Source: Candidatus Wolfebacteria bacterium
Lineage (GTDB): Bacteria; Patescibacteriota; Minisyncoccia; UBA6257; UBA9933
Assembly (NCBI GenBank): GCA_016214005.1
Contig: JACRPK010000006.1
Span: 17,719 to 81,718, forward strand
Length of the DNA: 64,000 nucleotides
Reading direction: 5' to 3'
Part shown: piece after piece, positions 3,673 through 44,540 of the stretch
Layout: the number at the start of each line of letters is the position of its first letter
How positions within the stretch are numbered: position 1 is the first letter of the stretch
Translations under genes and position numbers: made by a program
Notes under the pieces: model-generated
The model's input: only the letters and a program-made list of their open reading frames with translations
The model's database searches: none
What the model was told of the DNA's origin: nothing

Positions 3673-3699
3673 ATCCCCAAAAAGTTATCCACAGCCTGT

Positions 3700-3785
3700 T
3701 CTCTCCCCATTGACTTTTTCATTTTCCCAAGTATAATGTAGGATAGAAACTTTGAAAAATACCAGTTCTAAGGTTAGAAACTGGT
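3700..3785 (+). promoter_or_regulatory. promoter cassette copy C (TTGACT 3710-3715, 17 nt, TATAAT 3733-3738) plus leader hairpin CCAGTTCTAAGGTTAGAAACTGG
   Basis: Repeat family member. The hairpin-type leader is shared with copies E and H. Confidence 0.6.
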
Positions 3786-3820
3786 TAAAAAAAGAAAGAA
3801 AAGAAAGAGGGGATAGGAAA

Positions 3821-4399
3821 ATGAAATTTTCAACGCGCCATATTATTTTACGACCAATGGAGGAGAAAGATTTATCGATTTTACATCAATGGCGTAACGA
3901 TGGCGATTTTATTCAATATTGTTCCGTTCGTCGTTATCCCGTCGAATACGAAGAATTTATTAATGAGTTGCAAAAGGATTTTAAAAATGATAGGCATCGT
4001 CAATTTATCATAGAATTACAAAAAGAGCGTAAGGTTATCGGTACAACTTATTCTTACAATTTTAACTCAATAGATGGTTATGCGTTTATAACTATTTATC
4101 TCGAGGAAAGGTACCGCTATCGTGGATATGGAGCAGAAGCAGTCGCGCTATTTTTAAGATTTCTTTTTGAATCATATCCCCTCTATAAAATTTATATGGA
4201 AGTGTATGACTATAATCAGCACGCGCTTTCAATTTTGCAAAATGCTAGTTTTGAAGAAGAGGGAAGATTTAAGGAACACCGTTTTTTTCGTGAAGAACGA
4301 TATGATTTAATCAGATTTGCATTTTTTCAGAAATCATTAACAAAAGTTTTTGAATTTTTAGAGAATATAAAATTTTATCGGAAAGGAGGTGATGTCTAA
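3821..4399 (+). CDS. GNAT-family N-acetyltransferase, 192 aa
   Basis: MKFSTRHIILRPMEEKDLSILHQWRND... with acetyl-CoA binding motif region YRGYGAEAV. RBS GGATAGGAAAATG. Confidence 0.7.
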   Translation: MKFSTRHIILRPMEEKDLSILHQWRNDGDFIQYCSVRRYPVEYEEFINELQKDFKNDRHRQFIIELQKERKVIGTTYSYNFNSIDGYAFITIYLEERYRYRGYGAEAVALFLRFLFESYPLYKIYMEVYDYNQHALSILQNASFEEEGRFKEHRFFREERYDLIRFAFFQKSLTKVFEFLENIKFYRKGGDV

Positions 4400-5986: not shown

Positions 5987-6070
5987 ATCCCCGCATAAAA
6001 CCTCGCTAATTTCGCCATTGACTTTTTCATTTTCCCAAGTATAATATAGTGTAGAAACTTTGAAAAATAA
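5987..6070 (+). promoter_or_regulatory. promoter cassette copy D (TTGACT 6018-6023, 16 nt, TATAAT 6040-6045)
   Basis: Repeat family member. Followed by type-II leader ACGCATCCCTGCCTGCCGGCAGGCAGGTTTGTGAATGTGTTAATAAGAAAACCGG. Confidence 0.6.
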
Positions 6071-6077
6071 CGCATCC

Positions 6078-6097
6078 CTGCCTGCCGGCAGGCAGGT
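6078..6097. repeat. 20-bp perfect palindrome CCTGCCTGCCGGCAGGCAGG (copy 1 of 4)
   Basis: Identical palindrome at 11152..11171, 41542..41561 and 55922-ish (core CCTGCCGGCAGG). Confidence 0.6.
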
Positions 6098-6136
6098 TTG
6101 TGAATGTGTTAATAAGAAAACCGGACTTCATATTTT

Positions 6137-6154
6137 GCTATCACTAATGATAGC
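6137..6154. promoter_or_regulatory. 18-bp palindromic operator-like site GCTATCACTAATGATAGC (copy 1 of 5)
   Basis: Same palindrome (GCTATCAC yRr GTGATAGC) at 25155, 42593, 43143 and 43461. Confidence 0.45.
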
Positions 6155-6192
6155 GTGGTCAAAAATAAGTAAAGAAAGAGAGGAATTGAATT

Positions 6193-6576
6193 ATGGGTGG
6201 ATATTCTGAAAAAGATGCGGCAAAAGATACTAATTCTAGTATGAAAGAAACAAAAGATGCTTGGCATACTGCAAGAGATGATGCTGCTGAAGAAGGCGAT
6301 TGGGGTGTGCCAAAAGACAGACATGGTGAAGGATGTTTTATAGCGACTGCGGCTTATGGAAGCTATTTCGAGCCTCACGTAAAAATTCTCAGGGATTTTA
6401 GAGATATTTTTCTTGTGGAGAGTATTTTGGGAAGATTATTCATAAAAATTTATTATTGTATCAGTCCGTTTATTTCCGGTATTATTGAAAAAAGTGAAAT
6501 TTTAAAGAAAATTATGCGAATAATTCTTTCGCCGATAGCATTGTTGATTGAACATATATTTATAAAGCGCTTTTAA
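6193..6576 (+). CDS. 127-aa protein: N-terminal hydrophilic DW-motif peptide region fused to a C-terminal GCFIATAAYGS…LRDFRD…hydrophobic module
   Basis: N-terminal 47 aa are homologous to the 4399 peptide. C-terminus carries CFIATAAYGS followed by LRDFRD and a hydrophobic stretch. I recall this as a conserved C-terminal module of secreted/anchored proteins but cannot name the family with certainty. Confidence 0.5.
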   Translation: MGGYSEKDAAKDTNSSMKETKDAWHTARDDAAEEGDWGVPKDRHGEGCFIATAAYGSYFEPHVKILRDFRDIFLVESILGRLFIKIYYCISPFISGIIEKSEILKKIMRIILSPIALLIEHIFIKRF

Positions 6577-7164: not shown

Positions 7165-7275
7165 ATCCCCGCATAAAACCTCGCTAATTCCCCCCCCATT
7201 AACTTTTTTGTTTTCGTGAGTATAATACAGTGTAGAAACCTTGAAAAACACCAGTTCTAAGGTTAGAAACTGGTT
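7165..7275 (+). promoter_or_regulatory. promoter cassette copy E (TTAACT 7199-7204, 16 nt, TATAAT 7221-7226) plus hairpin leader
   Basis: Repeat family member. Confidence 0.6.
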
Positions 7276-7310
7276 AAAAAAAGAGAGAAAAGAAAGAGAG
7301 GATAAGGAAA

Positions 7311-11087: not shown

Positions 11088-11171
11088 GTCCATTGACTTT
11101 TTCATTTTCCCGAGTATAATATAGGGTAGAAACTTTGAAAAATAACGCATCCCTGCCTGCCGGCAGGCAGG
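11088..11171 (+). promoter_or_regulatory. promoter cassette copy G (TTGACT 11093-11098, 16 nt, TATAAT 11115-11120) with type-II leader containing the 20-bp palindrome
   Basis: Repeat family member. Confidence 0.6.
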
Positions 11172-11272
11172 TTTGTGAATGTGTTAATAAGAAAACCGGT
11201 ACTACTATTGATAGTAGTGCCAAAGATATTTCAGACAAAGAAAGAAAAGAAAAAGAAAGAGAGGATGGGAAA

Positions 11273-13179: not shown

Positions 13180-13716
13180 ATGAATAAAAATTTAGTAAAA
13201 ATTATAAATGAAATGGCCGCCATTGATCAAAAGATGAGAAGAAATGCGATGAAAACTGGAATTTGGGATAAGATGGTTGATAGAAAAAATATATTAAAAA
13301 TAAAAAAAATTATTAAAAAATTTGGTTGGCCGACGATTGGTCTTGTTGGTAAAAAAGCTAGTTGGAATGCGTGGTTAATTATTCAACACGCCGATCATGA
13401 TATTCGGTTTCAAAAAACTATTTTAAGTCTGCTCGAAAAAATTTATAATAAAAATTCATTAGAAATAGATAAAAATAATATAGCGTTTTTAAAAGATAGA
13501 ATTTTAATAAATGAAGGGAAGCATCAAGTATTTGGGACACAATTTTATACAAATAAAAAAGGAATTTTTGGACCGAGGTCGATAAAAGATATTAAAAATC
13601 TTGATAAAAAAAGAAAAGAATATAATCTGCCGCCATTTAGTGAATATAAAAAATTAATAAATAATTACAAAGTTGTTCCGATTAAAAAAAATAATAAAAA
13701 TAATCACCGCCATTGA
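13180..13716 (+). CDS. hypothetical protein, 178 aa, very AT-rich
   Basis: ORF only. Its 3' end abuts promoter cassette H. Confidence 0.35.
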   Translation: MNKNLVKIINEMAAIDQKMRRNAMKTGIWDKMVDRKNILKIKKIIKKFGWPTIGLVGKKASWNAWLIIQHADHDIRFQKTILSLLEKIYNKNSLEIDKNNIAFLKDRILINEGKHQVFGTQFYTNKKGIFGPRSIKDIKNLDKKRKEYNLPPFSEYKKLINNYKVVPIKKNNKNNHRH

Positions 13717-13788
13717 CTTTTTTATTTTCCCGAGTATAATATAAAATAGAAACTTTGAAAAATACCAGTTCTAAGGTTAGAAACTGGT
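13705..13788 (+). promoter_or_regulatory. promoter cassette copy H (TTGACT 13713-13718, 16 nt, TATAAT 13735-13740) plus hairpin leader
   Basis: Repeat family member. Confidence 0.6.
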
Positions 13789-13824
13789 AAAAAAAAGAAA
13801 GAAAAAGAAAGAGAGGATAAGGAA

Positions 13825-24584: not shown

Positions 24585-25127
24585 TTATTTGGAGGAGGCC
24601 GACAAGAAAGTCGCCCAATGCACTTTCTTCTCCTTAAAGTAGTGGATTGCGCCGGTAACGTGGAAAATCCAGCGAGCTTTTTCTTGTCCCTTAATGTTAA
24701 AAACAGCCGTGTATTCTCCGGGAAGGAGATAGTCTTCTTGCTCTTTTTCCGAATCAAGGGTGTAGCTTGTGGAAAGGCCAGTACTGTTGTTGATTATAAC
24801 AGCGGTAACGGTTTCTTTCGTTGAATTGACCACAATTCCTTTGAATCCCATTGATATGCCATTTTCTGTCTTTGTCATTGTGGGCTGAGCATATAGTTTG
24901 GCCATGGCCGTGTCAAAGCCATCTTTTTTTTGGCGAAGACTCTCTTTTTCGTTTTGAATTTTCGCCATTTCCTCGGCATCCGAAAAACCGCTATGATCGC
25001 CGCTGTTGTATTGCTCTTCACTGCCGTAGCGAGCTTTACCGCCGACATAAGCAATCCCCAGGGCGCCGGCGCAAGCGTTGAGGCTAACGACCGCAAGTAT
25101 CAAAAACAGAAATGCAAATCTTCTCAT
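24585..25127 (-). CDS. hypothetical lipoprotein, 180 aa
   Basis: Signal + lipobox LNAC|AG. Higher GC than the surroundings. Operator palindrome 28 bp upstream of its start. Confidence 0.5.
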   Translation of the reverse strand: MRRFAFLFLILAVVSLNACAGALGIAYVGGKARYGSEEQYNSGDHSGFSDAEEMAKIQNEKESLRQKKDGFDTAMAKLYAQPTMTKTENGISMGFKGIVVNSTKETVTAVIINNSTGLSTSYTLDSEKEQEDYLLPGEYTAVFNIKGQEKARWIFHVTGAIHYFKEKKVHWATFLSASSK

Positions 25128-25323
25128 ATATCCTCCTTAAATTCCTTAAATGTTGCTATCACTAGTGATAGCGTTTATTATTGAGTTTTCAAAAAAATTT
25201 AGAGTTCTTTTTTTATGTCGCGATGTTTCGTTCCCTAAATTAAACTATAAAAAATATAGCATACCTTAATGCAAAAGTCAATAGTTGCAAAGGATAATCA
25301 AATTAGTTAAAATAATATAATCA

Positions 25324-25899
25324 ATGATTAATAAATTTTCATTAATTGCATTGCTTATTATTGGTTTATTGCCGTCTTTTGTTCTTGCCATTTCTGCCGG
25401 TGATATTTTAGCGCCAGCCGATGTGGCTCCTCAAAATATCGGCGGTATTCAGGCCGGAAAAGTTGAGGTGAGTAGTGTTAATCAACTTTTCTCTTATTTA
25501 GAACTGCTTTTAAGATGGGTTTTTGGAATATTTTTTGCCGCTTCAGTCATTCTTATAATTTGGGCCGGCTATTATTATCTTATTGGAGGCGAAGACAGCG
25601 AAAATATCAATATTGCAAAAAGAAGAATTACTTGGGCGGCAGTGGCGATCGTTGTGGCGATTTTATCCGGCACTTTTGTTTTGCTGATTTCTAATTTTTT
25701 AGGAGCTCAAGGCGGAAGTTTTGGAACTGGCAACTCGGGCGGTTCTGGTGGCGCAGGAGGATCTTCTGACTATCCTGGGGGACCATATCAATCGCAGAGT
25801 CAATATTGGCAGCAATATCAATATACCTGCAAAGCAGGCGACACCTTGCCGTGTTGCAGCGGCCATGGAGCGGGTGACGTTGTCACTTGCTGGAAATAA
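25324..25899 (+). CDS. VirB2/TrbC-like 2-TM protein (paralog 4) with Gly-rich and Cys-rich C-terminal tail
   Basis: Core …YYLIGGEDSENINIAKRRITWAAVA…. Tail ends with CKAGDTLPCCSGHGAGDVVTCWK. Confidence 0.4.
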   Translation: MINKFSLIALLIIGLLPSFVLAISAGDILAPADVAPQNIGGIQAGKVEVSSVNQLFSYLELLLRWVFGIFFAASVILIIWAGYYYLIGGEDSENINIAKRRITWAAVAIVVAILSGTFVLLISNFLGAQGGSFGTGNSGGSGGAGGSSDYPGGPYQSQSQYWQQYQYTCKAGDTLPCCSGHGAGDVVTCWK

Positions 25900-35468: not shown

Positions 35469-35739
35469 AATTTTGATAGTTTGAATACTATCACGGCTTT
35501 TTTCTCTTGACAAGGGGCAGGGCATTCATATAATGGGTAGATATCTGAAAACGGAACGAATCTGATTTTTGGAGAGAACTGATTTTTGGAGAGGACCTTG
35601 AAAAATTAAAAGTTAAAATTAAATCAGAATTTTTTTAGTTGTCCCAATTTTTATTCAAAATAGAAATGTAGTTGGTAGTGAGTAGCTGGCAAATTTTTGC
35701 TTTCTGCTTACTGCTTTCTACTTCTATTTTTATTTGAGA

Positions 35740-37322
<1,583 letters not shown>

Positions 37323-37459
37323 AAATTAATAAAAATGTTGTCGATCACAGAAGGCGTTGACCGAGGAGCCTCAAGTTTCGGTTAAAATTGGGCAACTGAA
37401 AAAGTTCTGACTAAAATCCGCCTTGCATGGCGGATTTAAATTTTGTATTATAAATTTAT

Positions 37460-41801: not shown

Positions 41802-42497
41802 GTGAATAATCGCGGACAAATTTTAACAGAGCTTATTGTTGCCATATCTATTACCGCCATTATTGTGGCGATTGGAGCGCAGATGATAGGCGTAAGTTTA
41901 TATTCGGCCGGATCTTCGGGAGATCGGCAAACCGCGAGCAGATTGTCCGAAGAAGTTTTTGAAGCGCTTCGCGCTATCACCCAAGGCAATGATGCGGCAA
42001 GTCAAGGCTGGAATAGGCTTTATTTGCCTCCGGACGGCAATGGCAATGCGTCAACTTCAAAAGGTGTGGCTAATCCGTATAAATTAACAATTGTTTCAAA
42101 TGCTTGGAAGGTTGCCACTGGCACGGAAGAAATTATTTTAGACGGCAATTCGTATTCTCGTTATTTTATTATTGAAAATGTTTCGCGAGCTTCTTCAACC
42201 GGAGCGATTGAAGATGTTTATAATCCCAGCAATGACGATCCGCATACTCAAAAAGTGATTGTAGATGTTTCTAAAATAAGCGGAATTGCCCAAGGCCAAA
42301 CGGACTTCGTTTTTTCGCAATATTTTACAAGATATTTAAATGAAGCCACGGCTCAAAATAATTGGACTCTTTCTGGTCAATGCGGTTCGGTAAGCGCCAC
42401 CTCAACTTCAATAGGAAATTGTTCAAATACTGGAGGAGATATCAGCAATTCATCTTGCGGCGGCGGAGTTTCTGCTTGTTTGAAAATTTCCCAGTGA
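41802..42497 (+). CDS. prepilin-type minor pilin (GTG start; the ORF track start lies inside the MITE)
   Basis: VNNRG|QILTELIVAISITAIIVAIG class III signal with Glu +5. Confidence 0.5.
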   Translation: MNNRGQILTELIVAISITAIIVAIGAQMIGVSLYSAGSSGDRQTASRLSEEVFEALRAITQGNDAASQGWNRLYLPPDGNGNASTSKGVANPYKLTIVSNAWKVATGTEEIILDGNSYSRYFIIENVSRASSTGAIEDVYNPSNDDPHTQKVIVDVSKISGIAQGQTDFVFSQYFTRYLNEATAQNNWTLSGQCGSVSATSTSIGNCSNTGGDISNSSCGGGVSACLKISQ

Positions 42498-42592
42498 TTT
42501 TTTCCGGAATTTTTTAAGCATTTTCTGAGTGATTTTTACAAAGCGATTTTAATAAAGCATTTTTTTAAATTTTTTATGTTTAAAATATTCTT

Positions 42593-42610
42593 GCTATCAC
42601 TAGTGATAGC
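42593..42610. promoter_or_regulatory. palindromic operator-like site TTCTTGCTATCACTAGTGATAGCAAGAA (28-bp perfect palindrome) upstream of the regulator gene
   Basis: Copy 3 of 5. Identical extended copy at 43139..43164, just downstream of the same gene. Confidence 0.5.
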
Positions 42611-42660
42611 AAGAATGATATAATTATTATATAATGCAATAAAATAAAAATAATAATTTT

Positions 42661-43131
42661 ATGGAAAATCTTTCTAATTTTAAATCAAGAAAAGAATGGG
42701 AAGAATTTATTTGGCATAAATTTTTAGAAGGTCTTAAGGATGCTAAAACAACGGGGCAGTTAAAAGAAATTTTAGAAAGCGTTTTAGACGGTCGCGAGAA
42801 AAATTTTATGATTAAGCGATTGATTGTGATTGCCTCAATCAGCCAAAATAAAACATATCGGGAAATCAGCGAACTTTTATGGCTGTCTCCGAATACAATT
42901 AGTTCAATTAAAAAAAGTTTATTTAAGAAAACAATTTATAGCGGTTATAAAAAATCAAATGCTAAATTTAATAAAAATAATAAAGAAGTTTCAAAGAAAA
43001 AATGGGGAGATGTCGCTTTTGATTTATTGGAATCATTTTCTCGCATTCCATTGCCGCCATTTATAGGAAAAAATCGCTGGCGTTATTTGGATGTAGATTA
43101 TCAAGACAAGATAAAATACGGTAAAAAATGA
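42661..43131 (+). CDS. TrpR/YerC-YecD-like HTH transcriptional regulator, 156 aa
   Basis: TYREISELLWLSPNTISSIKKSL helix-turn-helix as in the TrpR-related YerC family. Flanked by the palindromes. Confidence 0.55.
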   Translation: MENLSNFKSRKEWEEFIWHKFLEGLKDAKTTGQLKEILESVLDGREKNFMIKRLIVIASISQNKTYREISELLWLSPNTISSIKKSLFKKTIYSGYKKSNAKFNKNNKEVSKKKWGDVAFDLLESFSRIPLPPFIGKNRWRYLDVDYQDKIKYGKK

Positions 43132-43164
43132 TAAATTTTCTTGCTATCACTAGTGATAGCAAGA

Positions 43165-43545
43165 AAAGAGAGGGGGAAAAGATGGGGGAATGAAGAAAAA
43201 ATGAGGGGAAAAGATGGGGGGGGGAGAAAAGATGAGAAAATAAAGAAAAAATGGGGAAAAAAATAATAAAATTTTTTATTATCACTGATGATAACATGGA
43301 GAAAAGATATGGAAAAAAGAGAGATAAATAAAGAGAATATAAGAGAGAAAAAAGGGGGGGAGAAGAAGGTAATTGATGGGAGAGAAAATAATAAAATAAA
43401 TTAATCATTGCGCGGTATTGTTATAATTAATAAAAAATAGTAATTGATTAAAAAATAGATGCTATCACCAGTGATAGCGCTAAAAAGAAAAACAAGAGGG
43501 GGAGGGAAAACAAAGAATAAATTTAAGAATATTTAAGAATAAAAA
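43165..43545 (+). repeat. purine-only low-complexity tract with G-homopolymers and GAAAAGATGGGG repeats
   Basis: ~380 bp almost devoid of pyrimidines on the + strand. Contains G9 and G8 runs. Operator copy 5 is at 43461..43478. Confidence 0.6.
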
Positions 43546-43550
43546 ATAAA

Positions 43551-44540
43551 ATGGTTTATAAAAAGGAGAACAATTTAATGGAAAATAATTTTAATTTAGT
43601 TAAATATAAAAAATATGCCGCGGTTTTTGGAATTTTGGCGGCGATTTTTGTTATAACAAGCGCGGCGATGGCGTATTTATGGCAGAAAGCAGAACGAGTT
43701 AATGAAAAAGGAATAATGCGGAGTGATAAATTTAATTTACTCAATCCGGCGAGAAAATTTGTAAAACAGGAAGATTTGATTATCAATTTTCAGCCTCTGC
43801 GGAATTATTTGAATGACAAATACGAAGCCGACCCGAATGTTTCCATTTATTTTGAATACTTGCCGACAGGTTCTAACATATCAATAAATAAAGACGCGGA
43901 GTTTTGGCAGGCGAGCTTGCTCAAATTGCCGGTTGCGTTGGCAGTGGCGAAAAAAATAGAAAAAGGCGAGTGGAAATGGACCAATGAACTGGTGATTATG
44001 ACGTCTGATAAAAATGGCGGGTTTGGCGATTTGTATAAGAAGCCGATCGGAACAAAACTTACGATTGAAAAATTAGTTCAGCTTTCCCTTTCGGAATCCG
44101 ACAATACGGCGAATTTCGTTTTGGTAAGAAATTTAGAGCCTTCGGATTATCAGGATATTTATGATCATCTTGGCTTAAGCGATTTTTTGTCAAATGAAGG
44201 CAAAATAAGCTCCAAGAAGTATTCAGTAATGCTGCGGGCGCTTTACAATTCTTCTTATCTTTCGGATGAAAATTCTCAAAAGCTTTTGGATTTTTTAAAT
44301 GAAACGTTGTTTAAGGAATATCTTGGCAGCGGCTTGCCCGATGATATTGAATTTTCTCATAAAATCGGCGTAAGCGACGACCAAAAAGTTTTTCTTGATT
44401 CCGGAATTGTCTTTGTCAAAAATCGTCCGTATATTTTGACTGCTATAATTAAAACTCAAAATAAAGAATATGCCGAAAAAGTTATGAAAGATATTTCAGA
44501 AAAAACTTATCAATATATTATGAATTATAATAGTAAATAA
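43551..44540 (+). CDS. membrane-anchored serine beta-lactamase-like (class A / PBP-fold) protein
   Basis: SxxK (ASLLK), SDN (SESDNTA) and K(T/I)G (HKIGVS) in the canonical order, after an N-terminal TM. Confidence 0.55.
   Translation: MVYKKENNLMENNFNLVKYKKYAAVFGILAAIFVITSAAMAYLWQKAERVNEKGIMRSDKFNLLNPARKFVKQEDLIINFQPLRNYLNDKYEADPNVSIYFEYLPTGSNISINKDAEFWQASLLKLPVALAVAKKIEKGEWKWTNELVIMTSDKNGGFGDLYKKPIGTKLTIEKLVQLSLSESDNTANFVLVRNLEPSDYQDIYDHLGLSDFLSNEGKISSKKYSVMLRALYNSSYLSDENSQKLLDFLNETLFKEYLGSGLPDDIEFSHKIGVSDDQKVFLDSGIVFVKNRPYILTAIIKTQNKEYAEKVMKDISEKTYQYIMNYNSK

What the first reader, a model, noticed from the sequence alone, without database searches (positions are those of the whole stretch)
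43165..43545. Purine-only ~380-bp tract with G9/G8 homopolymers upstream of the beta-lactamase-like gene
The + strand here is almost exclusively A/G. It has reiterated GAAAAGATGGGG units and G runs of 8-9 nt, and is flanked by operator palindromes. Such strand-asymmetric tracts can form triplex/H-DNA, and the long G runs are classic slipped-strand contingency sites. Only spurious low-complexity ORFs lie on the complementary strand.
Basis: seen in the sequence. Interest (0 to 1): 0.5.

Follow-up and report, generated by a model that had tools for sequence, protein, structure and literature searches.

The report
Repressor operator array with purine spacers
The purine-rich stretch is the spacer DNA of a small array of binding sites for a neighbouring Trp-repressor-like regulator in a Wolfebacteria (candidate phyla radiation) genome. 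It grew by tandem duplication, and nothing here supports it being a triplex-forming or phase-variable element.

Summary
The compositional anomaly is real. Window 43165-43545 is 78% purine and 3.7% C, and it holds the only 100-nt windows of at least 85% purine in the 64 kb. It has a G9 run and a G7 run (not G8). The tract is not one homogeneous element. It is the 420-nt spacer between a TrpR-family regulator gene (42661-43131) and a class-A-beta-lactamase-like serine hydrolase gene (43578-44540). It contains three copies (O2, O3, O4) of the 20-28-bp palindrome that also overlaps the regulator's own extended -10 promoter (O1). These are separated by C-free, structure-free purine blocks. In 35 of 36 related Patescibacteria loci the regulator gene is bracketed upstream and downstream by one lineage-specific palindrome, and some loci carry arrays with similar purine spacers. 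The first ~270 nt of the tract arose by tandem duplication of a 135-138-nt unit: gene 3' end + O2 + purine block. H-DNA fails its mirror-repeat test. The G runs lie in no promoter spacer or credible ORF, are not conserved in the nearest relative, and are identical in two assemblies. Best reading: a multi-operator regulatory region with leader-like spacers. What the purine composition is for remains unexplained.

The parts
42588..42615 (.). O1: 28-bp perfect palindrome TTCTTGCTATCACTAGTGATAGCAAGAA. It abuts the extended -10 (TG 42616-17, TATAAT 42619-24) of the regulator gene.
   Evidence: (I2). The distance from centre to -10 is 17 nt, as in most related loci.
42661..43131 (+). TrpR-family helix-turn-helix regulator gene (156 aa). 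It is identical to the NCBI protein HZC33_01410 of a Candidatus Wolfebacteria MAG.
   Evidence: Pfam Trp_repressor scores 31.7 bits against a cut-off of 27. A profile of the family hits the PDB 'putative Trp repressor' entries 3frw, 3kor and 3g1c.
43095..43229 (+). Duplication unit 1: the real 3' end of the regulator CDS, then O2, then the first purine block including G9.
   Evidence: One search compares it with unit 2 at an offset of 135/138 nt.
43138..43165 (.). O2: second perfect copy of the 28-bp palindrome, starting 7 nt after the stop codon. No -10 element and no T-run follows it on the + strand.
   Evidence: The same 'gene-end' copy is present in 35 of 36 related loci.
43166..43275 (+). 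Purine block A, C-free. It has G5, G5, G4 and G9 runs, a 32-nt tandem repeat, and A-tracts phased at about 10 bp.
   Evidence: RNA MFE is 0.0 kcal/mol for 43161-43260. The wedge-model curvature is in the top 0.6% of the window.
43216..43224 (+). G9 homopolymer.
   Evidence: Identical in L009.
43230..43367 (+). Duplication unit 2: a purine-shifted pseudo-copy of the gene's 3' end (reads DEKIKKKWGKK**, compared with QDKIKYGKK**), then O3, then the second purine block including G7.
   Evidence: The 43 nt before the operator are 72% identical (0 of 5000 shuffles reach this). The 64 nt after it are 67% identical (1 of 5000).
43276..43297 (.). O3: diverged operator copy (TTATTATCACTGATGATAACA). The half-sites TATCA/TGATA and their spacing are kept, but the outer G/C is lost.
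   Evidence: (D2). The core differs by 1 nt from the operator of lineage L024.
43298..43405 (+). Purine block B, C-free, with G7 at 43354-43360.
   Evidence: RNA MFE is 0.0 for 43301-43400.
43419..43427 (+). Candidate extended -10 promoter element, TGtTATAAT, with no recognisable -35.
   Evidence: Read from the sequence. It was not scored by the two-hexamer scan, so it is inferred.
43460..43479 (.). O4: well-preserved 20-bp operator TGCTATCACCAGTGATAGCG. It lies between the candidate promoter and the hydrolase start.
   Evidence: It has the same form as the sites at 6139 and 25157.
43480..43577 (+). Purine-rich, structure-free leader of the hydrolase gene. It contains a second promoter-like site (TTAAGA-18-TAAAAT, 43523-43552) and GGAG at 43565-43568.
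   Evidence: RNA MFE is -0.6 for 43481-43580.
43578..44540 (+). Class-A-beta-lactamase-like serine hydrolase gene (320 aa from ATG 43578; 329 aa from ATG 43551).
   Evidence: Pfam Beta-lactamase2 3.3e-39. NCBIfam bla_class_A scores 75.6 bits against a cut-off of 200, so it is not a bona fide beta-lactamase. The 320-aa form was called in Logan.
6139..6152 (.). Further operator copy (1 mismatch) in the leader of ORF 6193-6576, a CFI-box-CTERM protein. It is followed by a purine leader.
25157..25170 (.). Further perfect operator core, between divergent genes 24585-25127(-) and 25324-25899(+), the latter T4SS-pilin-like.

Best explanation
The tract is the intergenic control region of a gene pair: a TrpR-family regulator followed by a serine hydrolase. 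It is built of three modules, each 'regulator-binding palindrome followed by a C-free purine block'.

Proposed mechanism (inferred):
- The regulator, presumably as a dimer like other TrpR-family proteins, binds O1 over its own extended -10 promoter and represses itself.
- It also binds O2, O3 and O4 downstream of its gene.
- O2, O3 and O4 have no promoter of their own. Bound protein there would act as a series of roadblocks, and/or loop to O1. This would limit read-through and internal-promoter transcription into the hydrolase gene.

Origin and role of the purine blocks:
- They are leader-type sequence. The same pattern, 'palindrome then purine run then ATG', occurs at other genes of this genome.
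- They were multiplied by tandem duplication of a 135-138-nt unit that includes the last 37 nt of the regulator gene, and by smaller 32-nt and 11-13-nt repeats.
- Their conserved property is composition, not sequence. With no C, the RNA cannot fold, so only the palindromes can form structure.
- In block A the A-tracts are helically phased, so the DNA is predicted to be curved.

Shown: the anatomy, the duplication, the co-variation of palindrome with regulator lineage, and the positions relative to promoters. Inferred: binding, repression, roadblock or looping, and any role of the purine composition.
For: 1. Family. The adjacent gene is a TrpR-family protein. TrpR and HisR family members bind 20-bp palindromes with lineage-specific consensus and commonly autoregulate (PMC9297842 is not the source here; the source is PMC9413887).
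2. Enrichment. The palindrome is enriched 17-fold over chance. It occurs at the regulator gene (4 copies) and in two other intergenic regions.
3. Bracketing. In 35 of 36 related loci the same palindrome lies upstream and downstream of the regulator gene. By the same lenient test, 2 of 74 control ORFs score, and both are trivial AT-rich matches.
4. Co-variation. Palindrome sequence co-varies with protein lineage (Mantel rho 0.18; 17 of 2000 permutations reach it).
5. Upstream copy. In about 26 of 35 loci it sits 11-24 nt from a -10 element, often TGnTATAAT.
6. Downstream copies. They lack both a -10 element (8 of 35, all weak) and a T-run (2 of 35).
7. Synteny. The order regulator, palindromes, hydrolase is kept in the sister lineage, whose regulator is 73% identical. 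There the spacer is a shorter 88-nt stretch that is 75% purine with 2 C.
8. Arrays elsewhere. Arrays of the palindrome with purine-rich spacers occur in L071, L075 and L059.
9. Duplication. The tandem duplication is statistically supported.
10. Structure. Blocks A, B and C are three of the four least-structured 100-nt RNA windows in the 64 kb.
11. Curvature. A-tracts in block A have a 10-bp period (z 9.3), and predicted curvature is in the top 0.6%.
12. Recurring module. The arrangement promoter, palindrome, purine leader, ATG recurs five times elsewhere in the window. One of those copies carries this operator.
Against: - No binding or expression data exist.
- Most related loci have the bracketing palindromes but no purine tract. 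Only about 5 of 36 have a 60-nt window of at least 80% purine.
- In L024 and part of L071 the spacer is pyrimidine-rich instead. The purine composition is therefore not needed for the operator system.
- The spacer sequence is not alignable with the sister lineage beyond composition (z 0.8).
- Curvature is only the 12th strongest in the window, and the wedge parameters were recalled from memory.
- O2-O3 and O3-O4 spacings (135 and 183 bp) are not both integral numbers of helical turns.
- The promoter of the hydrolase gene is not established. There are two weak candidates.
- In 10 related loci the next gene is convergent. The downstream palindrome cannot in general be 'the operator of the next gene'.
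Confidence: 0.6

Rival explanations
1. The palindrome array is not mainly a switch for the hydrolase gene. It is a set of extra ('decoy' or nucleoprotein) binding sites that titrate or organise the regulator. The purine DNA serves as stiff or curved spacer.
For: Arrays of 4-6 palindromes occur on both sides of the regulator gene in L059 and L071, where the next gene is convergent. Downstream copies lack promoters. Block A has phased A-tracts.
Against: O4 lies in the hydrolase leader, and synteny with the hydrolase is kept in the sister lineage. The same operator sits in the leaders or promoters of two other genes. That is ordinary regulon behaviour. No partition genes are nearby.
Confidence: 0.12
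2. The purine blocks act as RNA. One option is a structure-free, C-poor untranslated segment that keeps the long intercistronic transcript free of folding and of Rho loading, and helps SD-independent initiation. The other is a purine-rich or antisense CU-rich regulatory RNA.
For: MFE is 0.0 for blocks A and B, against a window median of -17.5. The C/G ratio is 0.14. There is no + strand terminator between the two genes. The 16S gene lacks the anti-SD, so initiation must rely on other features. The duplicated copy of the gene's 3' end lost all its C. In L075 a purine block after the palindrome ends at a terminator hairpin.
Against: There is no Rfam match. There is no sequence conservation with the sister lineage. 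The strand asymmetry is reversed in L024. The minus-strand 'promoter' at O3 is just the operator's own TATCAT. No expression data exist, and whether the genome has rho is unknown.
Confidence: 0.12
3. Non-B DNA element: H-DNA (triplex) or a G-quadruplex on the + strand that modulates transcription or replication.
For: The tract is a strand-asymmetric purine tract. One G4-type motif (G5-7-G5-16-G4-7-G9, 43172-43224) is the only such motif on either strand of the 64 kb.
Against: There is no perfect purine mirror repeat with arms of at least 8 nt. The longest uninterrupted purine run is 29 nt. The G4 motif has a 16-nt central loop. It is destroyed in duplicate unit 2 and absent from the sister lineage, which has only two G4 runs.
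Confidence: 0.06
4. Phase-variable contingency locus: slippage in G9 or G7 switches expression of the hydrolase or of a small ORF.
For: G9 is long enough for slippage, and it is the longest homopolymer of G or C in the window. Gene callers placed 42-aa and 31-aa ORFs over G9 and G7 in the Logan contig.
Against: The runs lie in no promoter spacer. The small ORFs are low-complexity, and they differ between the two duplicated units and from the sister lineage. G9 and G7 are identical in two assemblies that differ by 10 substitutions elsewhere. The runs are not conserved in the relative.
Confidence: 0.05

Closest known systems
TrpR/HisR (YerC) family repressors and their 20-bp palindromic operators
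   Same: The protein has a Trp_repressor-domain helix-turn-helix. The core palindrome is 20-22 bp. The consensus is lineage-specific. One site overlaps the regulator's own promoter, implying autoregulation. Further sites lie at a few other genes (PMC9413887).
   Different: The protein is below NCBI's TrpR equivalog cut-off (23.6 against 67 bits) and carries a conserved ~60-aa C-terminal extension. A second, promoter-less operator copy directly after the stop codon is present in 35 of 36 loci, and some loci have arrays. I did not find this described in the HisR paper or in the literature searches. The targets are envelope or surface genes, not amino-acid biosynthesis genes.
Multi-operator repression with auxiliary operators (lac O1/O2/O3, gal, deo), and protein roadblocks placed downstream of a promoter
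   Same: Several copies of one operator lie within a few hundred bp. Some are far from any promoter. One lies downstream of the candidate promoter.
   Different: No evidence exists here for tetramerisation or looping. The spacings are not clearly phased. The auxiliary sites flank the regulator gene itself.
Simple-sequence contingency loci (poly-G/C tracts of Neisseria, Haemophilus, Campylobacter)
   Same: A homopolymeric G run of 9.
   Different: The run is not in a CDS or between -35 and -10. No length variation is seen. It is not conserved.
Polypurine-polypyrimidine mirror repeats forming H-DNA; G-quadruplex motifs
   Same: Strand-asymmetric purine richness. Four G-tracts lie within 53 nt.
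   Different: There is no mirror symmetry. T interrupts often. The G4 loop is long and the motif is not conserved.
Purine-rich, unstructured 5' leaders in bacteria that initiate without SD:anti-SD pairing
   Same: The sequence between operator and start codon is C-free, A/G-rich and unfoldable. The 16S gene lacks CCUCC. Loss of the anti-SD in about half of Parcubacteria is published (PMC9297842).
   Different: Two of the three blocks are not followed by a gene.

Membership tests
TrpR-family regulator with its operator | Protein matches the Trp_repressor domain above Pfam's gathering score | tested here: met
   31.7 bits against 27, E 1.6e-7. A profile of 14 homologues hits 3frw, 3kor and 3g1c.
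TrpR-family regulator with its operator | Orthologue of TrpR proper (NCBIfam TIGR01321 equivalog) | tested here: not met
   23.6 bits against a cut-off of 67.25. It is a distant family member, not TrpR itself.
TrpR-family regulator with its operator | About 20-bp palindromic site overlapping the regulator's own promoter | tested here: met
   The O1 centre is 17 nt from TGaTATAAT. The same geometry holds in about 26 of 35 related loci.
TrpR-family regulator with its operator | Site sequence co-varies with the regulator lineage | tested here: met
   Table of 35 operators. Mantel rho 0.18, with 17 of 2000 permutations reaching it.
TrpR-family regulator with its operator | Direct binding of the protein to the site, and the corepressor ligand | not testable with these tools
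   Needs purified protein (gel shift, footprint, ligand screen).
H-DNA-forming polypurine mirror repeat | Uninterrupted homopurine run with mirror symmetry (arms of roughly 10 nt or more) | tested here: not met
   No perfect purine mirror repeat with arms of at least 8 and spacer of at most 8. The longest purine run is 29 nt.
G-quadruplex motif | Four G-tracts of at least 3 with short loops | tested here: inconclusive
   One motif at 43172-43224 with loops of 7, 16 and 7. None has all loops of 12 or less. It is not conserved in unit 2 or in L026.
Simple-sequence contingency locus | Homopolymer of at least 8 or so | tested here: met
   G9 at 43216-43224.
Simple-sequence contingency locus | Run located in a coding sequence or between -35 and -10 of a promoter | tested here: not met
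   No promoter-like site spans either run. The overlapping ORFs are low-complexity and not conserved.
Simple-sequence contingency locus | Length polymorphism within or between populations | tested here: inconclusive
   Two assemblies agree. Reads could not be examined.
Known RNA family (Rfam) | Match to a covariance model | tested here: not met
   Only chance-level miRNA/sRNA hits on the palindromes, with E 0.4-0.55. Nothing reached gathering score.
Intrinsic terminator (for the gene-end palindrome O2) | Hairpin followed by a T-run on the transcribed strand | tested here: not met
   O2 is followed by GAGAGGGGGAAA. Only 2 of 35 related downstream copies have at least 6 T in the next 10 nt.

The most novel reading that the evidence does not exclude
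In Patescibacteria, this TrpR-like family forms self-contained 'regulator cassettes'. The gene is always bracketed by its own palindrome. The promoter-less gene-end copies, and the arrays that grow from them by tandem duplication, would act as protein-dependent terminators or insulators, or as loop anchors, in genomes poor in conventional terminators. The C-free purine spacers would be selected to keep the intervening DNA and RNA free of competing structure and of Rho loading in organisms that have lost the anti-SD. This would be an undescribed regulatory architecture and a key to reading CPR regulons.
Probability: 0.15. Interest if true: 0.65.

Novelty: new variant of a known kind. Interest (0 to 1): 0.4.

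Why it matters
Almost nothing is known about transcriptional regulation in candidate-phyla-radiation bacteria, which cannot be cultured alone. This locus gives a readable example: a regulator, its cognate palindrome, and a small regulon of envelope and surface genes. These include a beta-lactamase-like hydrolase, a CFI-box protein and pilin-like genes.

The family-wide rule 'the same palindrome before and after the regulator gene' held in 35 of 36 loci. It would allow operator motifs, and hence regulons, to be predicted directly from CPR metagenome bins.

For the tract itself the message is cautionary. A striking purine tract with long G runs is best explained by duplication of a regulatory module. 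It is not best explained by non-B DNA or phase variation.

Tried and rejected
1. Purine repeat units as decayed operator half-sites. There is no enrichment of half-site-like words over dinucleotide shuffles. Rejected.
2. H-DNA. No mirror repeats. Rejected.
3. 'Purine-only leaders are a genome-wide habit'. Mean purine content at -40..-1 of 55 ORF starts is only 58%. The habit is confined to one repeated promoter cassette and to the TrpR-like sites. The claim was narrowed accordingly.
4. Gene-end palindrome as intrinsic terminator. No T-run follows it. Rejected.
5. Gene-end palindrome as operator of the next gene's promoter. No -10 lies nearby, and 10 loci have a convergent next gene. Rejected as a general rule.
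6. Antisense CU-rich sRNA from a minus-strand promoter at O3. The '-10' is the operator arm itself, and the arrangement is not conserved in L026. Kept only as a weak rival.
7. Centromere or iteron-like array. No partition or replication genes are nearby, and GC skew is uniformly positive with no origin signal. Not supported.
8. PDB top hit 8vd6 'CAP REPEAT'. It is a de novo designed repeat protein (PMC12339374). Ignored.
9. Homology of the spacer with the sister lineage. Not alignable beyond composition.
10. Spacer-only similarity of blocks A and B by gapped local alignment. Not significant (z 1.6). The duplication only became clear in the ungapped, in-register test that includes the gene's 3' end.
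11. Closer relatives for a polymorphism test. Exact-protein look-ups gave only one further assembly of the same population. P0126 and P0127 belong to the 73% lineage.
12. Defence-system models (PADLOC). No hits.

Full report
OBSERVATION. The stretch 43165-43545 has A198, C14, G98 and T71. That is 78% purine, 3.7% C and 19% T. The only 100-nt windows of the 64-kb window with at least 85% purine are 43143-43278 and 43286-43404, and no window is comparably pyrimidine-rich. The + strand has no C at all in 43166-43282 or in 43296-43405. G9 (43216-43224) is confirmed. The second run is G7 (43354-43360), not G8. GAAAAGATGGGG occurs twice exactly, and Tandem Repeats Finder reports periods of 32 and 11-13. 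An independent Logan assembly contig (L009) is identical over the whole tract, while differing at 10 positions elsewhere in 6.3 kb. The tract is therefore real and not an assembly artefact. It is 'purine plus T, without C' rather than purine-only, and it is interrupted by palindromes.

ANATOMY. The tract is the 420-446-nt spacer between two + strand genes.
- Upstream gene: a 156-aa protein with a Trp_repressor domain (42661-43131; 31.7 bits against cut-off 27). A family profile hits the PDB 'putative Trp repressor' structures.
- Downstream gene: a Beta-lactamase2-family serine hydrolase (43578-44540). It scores far below NCBI's class A beta-lactamase cut-off.
- The regulator protein is identical to a protein of a Candidatus Wolfebacteria MAG.

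A 28-bp perfect palindrome, TTCTTGCTATCACTAGTGATAGCAAGAA, occurs twice. O1 (42588-42615) directly abuts TGaTATAAT, the regulator gene's extended -10. O2 (43138-43165) starts 7 nt after its stop codon. Two further copies lie inside the tract. O3 (43276-43297) has intact half-sites but has lost the outer G/C. O4 (43460-43479) is well preserved. Two more copies lie in other intergenic regions, at 6139 and 25157. Together these give 14 strand-matches against 0.82 expected. The tract is thus three modules of 'palindrome plus C-free purine block'. The last module also carries promoter-like elements and the leader of the hydrolase gene.

COMPARATIVE EVIDENCE. Hydrolase relatives at 53-76% identity have neither the regulator gene nor a long spacer. 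The sister Wolfebacteria lineage, whose regulator is 73% identical, keeps the order regulator, palindromes, hydrolase. It has the identical O1 and a gene-end O2. Its spacer is 88 nt, 75% purine with 2 C, and made of two ~33-nt repeats. A third palindrome lies just before the hydrolase gene.

A metagenome scan with a family alignment gave 54 loci. In 35 of 36 non-redundant loci, one lineage-specific palindrome lies both upstream and downstream of the regulator gene. By the same lenient test, 2 of 74 control ORFs score, and both are trivial AT-rich matches. The palindromes share a 22-bp architecture, RCTA-N10-TAGY, and co-vary with the protein (Mantel rho 0.18; 17 of 2000 permutations).

The upstream copy sits 11-24 nt from a -10 element in about 26 of 35 loci. 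Often the TG of an extended -10 is supplied by the operator arm. This is the position expected for autorepression. The downstream copies have neither a nearby -10 (8 of 35, all weak) nor a T-run (2 of 35). They occur even where the next gene is convergent, in 10 loci. Some loci carry arrays of 4-6 palindromes on both sides of the gene (L059, L071). In L071, L075 and partly L059 the spacers are again G/A-rich and C-poor. In most loci they are not, and in L024 the spacer is T-rich instead.

ORIGIN OF THE TRACT. Unit 1 (43095-43229) consists of the last 37 nt of the regulator CDS, O2 and the purine block with G9. Unit 2 (43230-43367) is its duplicate at an offset of 135/138 nt. The 43 nt before the palindrome are 72% identical (0 of 5000 shuffles reach this). 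The 64 nt after it are 67% identical (1 of 5000). The copy of the gene end still reads DEKIKKKWGKK** against the real QDKIKYGKK**, but it has lost every C. G7 is the decayed counterpart of G9. Smaller repeats of 32 nt and 11-13 nt lie within block A. The tract therefore grew by tandem duplication of a regulatory module, under a directional pressure towards purines.

PROPERTIES OF THE PURINE BLOCKS.
- As + strand RNA, the three blocks are three of the four least-structured 100-nt windows in the 64 kb. MFE is 0.0, 0.0 and -0.6 kcal/mol against a median of -17.5.
- The fold of the whole tract is significant only because the palindromes pair.
- In block A the A-tracts recur every ~10 bp (z 9.3).
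- A wedge model, with parameters recalled from memory, puts block A in the top 0.6% of the window for curvature. It is the 12th most curved region.
- The spacer sequence is not alignable with the sister lineage beyond composition.
- The units are not decayed operator half-sites.

Elsewhere in the window one promoter cassette is repeated five times. In each copy the order is promoter, leader palindrome, purine run, ATG. The copy upstream of ORF 6193 carries this regulator's operator. Purine leaders are otherwise not typical of this genome. The 16S gene ends GGATCA-TTTAAATT and so lacks the anti-SD. This loss is published for about half of Parcubacteria (PMC9297842). The G runs should therefore not be read as Shine-Dalgarno sites. 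Absence of structure is a more plausible selected property.

MECHANISM (BEST EXPLANATION, CONFIDENCE 0.6). The TrpR-family protein binds the palindromes. That is the behaviour of the family: 20-bp palindromes, lineage-specific motifs and autoregulation (PMC9413887). At O1 it would repress its own promoter. At O2, O3 and O4 it would block transcription running from the regulator gene, and from the weak internal promoter, into the hydrolase gene. It might also loop to O1. The purine blocks are duplicated leader-type spacers. Their only conserved feature is a C-free, unfoldable composition, and their exact sequence and G-run lengths are incidental. Binding, repression and any role of composition or curvature are inferred, not shown.

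RIVALS.
- The array may serve mainly as decoy or nucleoprotein sites (0.12).
- The blocks may act as RNA: structure-free or Rho-resistant untranslated RNA, or a regulatory RNA (0.12).
- Non-B DNA (0.06). The mirror-repeat requirement for H-DNA is not met. The single G4 motif (43172-43224) is the only one in the window, but it has a 16-nt loop and is not conserved.
- Phase variation (0.05). The runs lie in no promoter spacer or credible ORF, and no variation is seen.

VERDICT. The tract is a tandemly duplicated operator-and-leader array of a TrpR-family regulator, which makes it a new variant of a known kind. The most interesting by-product is the family-wide rule that the regulator gene is bracketed by its own palindrome, with a promoter-less copy at the gene's end. 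I did not find this described, on limited searches. Two things remain unexplained: why the spacers are C-free, and what the gene-end copy does.

Noticed in passing
window 35730-37327, 3' end at 37314-37327: The 16S rRNA gene ends ...GGATCA TTTAAATT instead of ...GGATCA CCTCCTTT, so the anti-Shine-Dalgarno sequence is absent. The gene stands alone, with no 23S gene next to it. It is about 65 nt longer than the Rfam model, with an insertion near the 5' end.
   Followed up: partly
window ~3699-3824, 6015-6192, 7188-7310, 11090-11272, 13702-13824: Five copies of one promoter cassette (CCATTGACTTTTTCATTTTCCCGAGTATAAT...TAGAAACTTTGAAAAATA). Each is followed by a leader palindrome, then a 27-29-nt pure purine run, then ATG. 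The palindrome is ACCAGTTCTAAGGTTAGAAACTGG in three copies and a GC-rich hairpin plus a regulator-type palindrome in two. The copies at 6015 and 11090 are 98% identical over 110 nt. They drive GNAT, radical SAM, MvdD-like ATP-grasp, CFI-box-CTERM and unknown genes, which may form a peptide-modification cluster.
   Followed up: partly
window ~11195-11220: A different palindrome (GGTACTACTATTGATAGTAGTGCC) of the same RCTA...TAGY type sits in the leader of the ATP-grasp gene. It may be the operator of a paralogous TrpR-like regulator encoded outside the window.
   Followed up: no
window 6193-6576: The 127-aa ORF is a CFI-box-CTERM domain protein (NCBIfam NF041770, E 5e-26). Its leader carries the TrpR-like operator, so it is probably in the same regulon as the hydrolase.
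   Followed up: partly
window 7190-7197: A C8 run lies directly upstream of the -35 element in one copy of the promoter cassette. The other copies have C4 or CGCC there.
   Followed up: no
L059 2200-3330; L071 2260-3470: Arrays of 4-6 copies of the lineage's palindrome lie on both sides of the TrpR-like gene. In L059 they form a ~51-bp tandem repeat. The next gene downstream is convergent in both loci. In L059 it is a Laminin_G_3 lectin-like protein. In L071 it has no Pfam match.
   Followed up: partly
L040 2279-2425: Two different palindrome families lie upstream of one TrpR-like gene. The CTTGCTATCACTAGCGATAGCAAG type appears once, and the CGCTATCCTATAGGATAGCG type appears twice upstream and once downstream. 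This suggests cross-regulation between paralogous regulators.
   Followed up: no
L080 1261-1301 versus L081 795-835: In one metagenome contig of the sister lineage, a variant lengthens an A-run in the K-rich part of the regulator gene. The ORF is then truncated to 115 aa.
   Followed up: no
L001 end and L009 start (window 43138-43165); L017-L019 ends: Short-read assemblies break exactly at the 28-bp palindrome. L001 ends at window 43165 and L009 starts at 43138. Three independent contigs of the sister lineage end within a few bases of the hydrolase start codon. These repeats fragment metagenome assemblies.
   Followed up: partly
window 42480-42587: The region upstream of O1 is T-rich, with 13-14-nt tandem repeats (GATTTTTACAAAGC; Tandem Repeats Finder). 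It is roughly the compositional mirror image of purine block A on the other side of the regulator gene.
   Followed up: no
window 1-64000: GC skew is positive in every 2-kb bin and nearly all genes are on the + strand. The whole window is leading strand, with no origin or terminus signal.
   Followed up: yes
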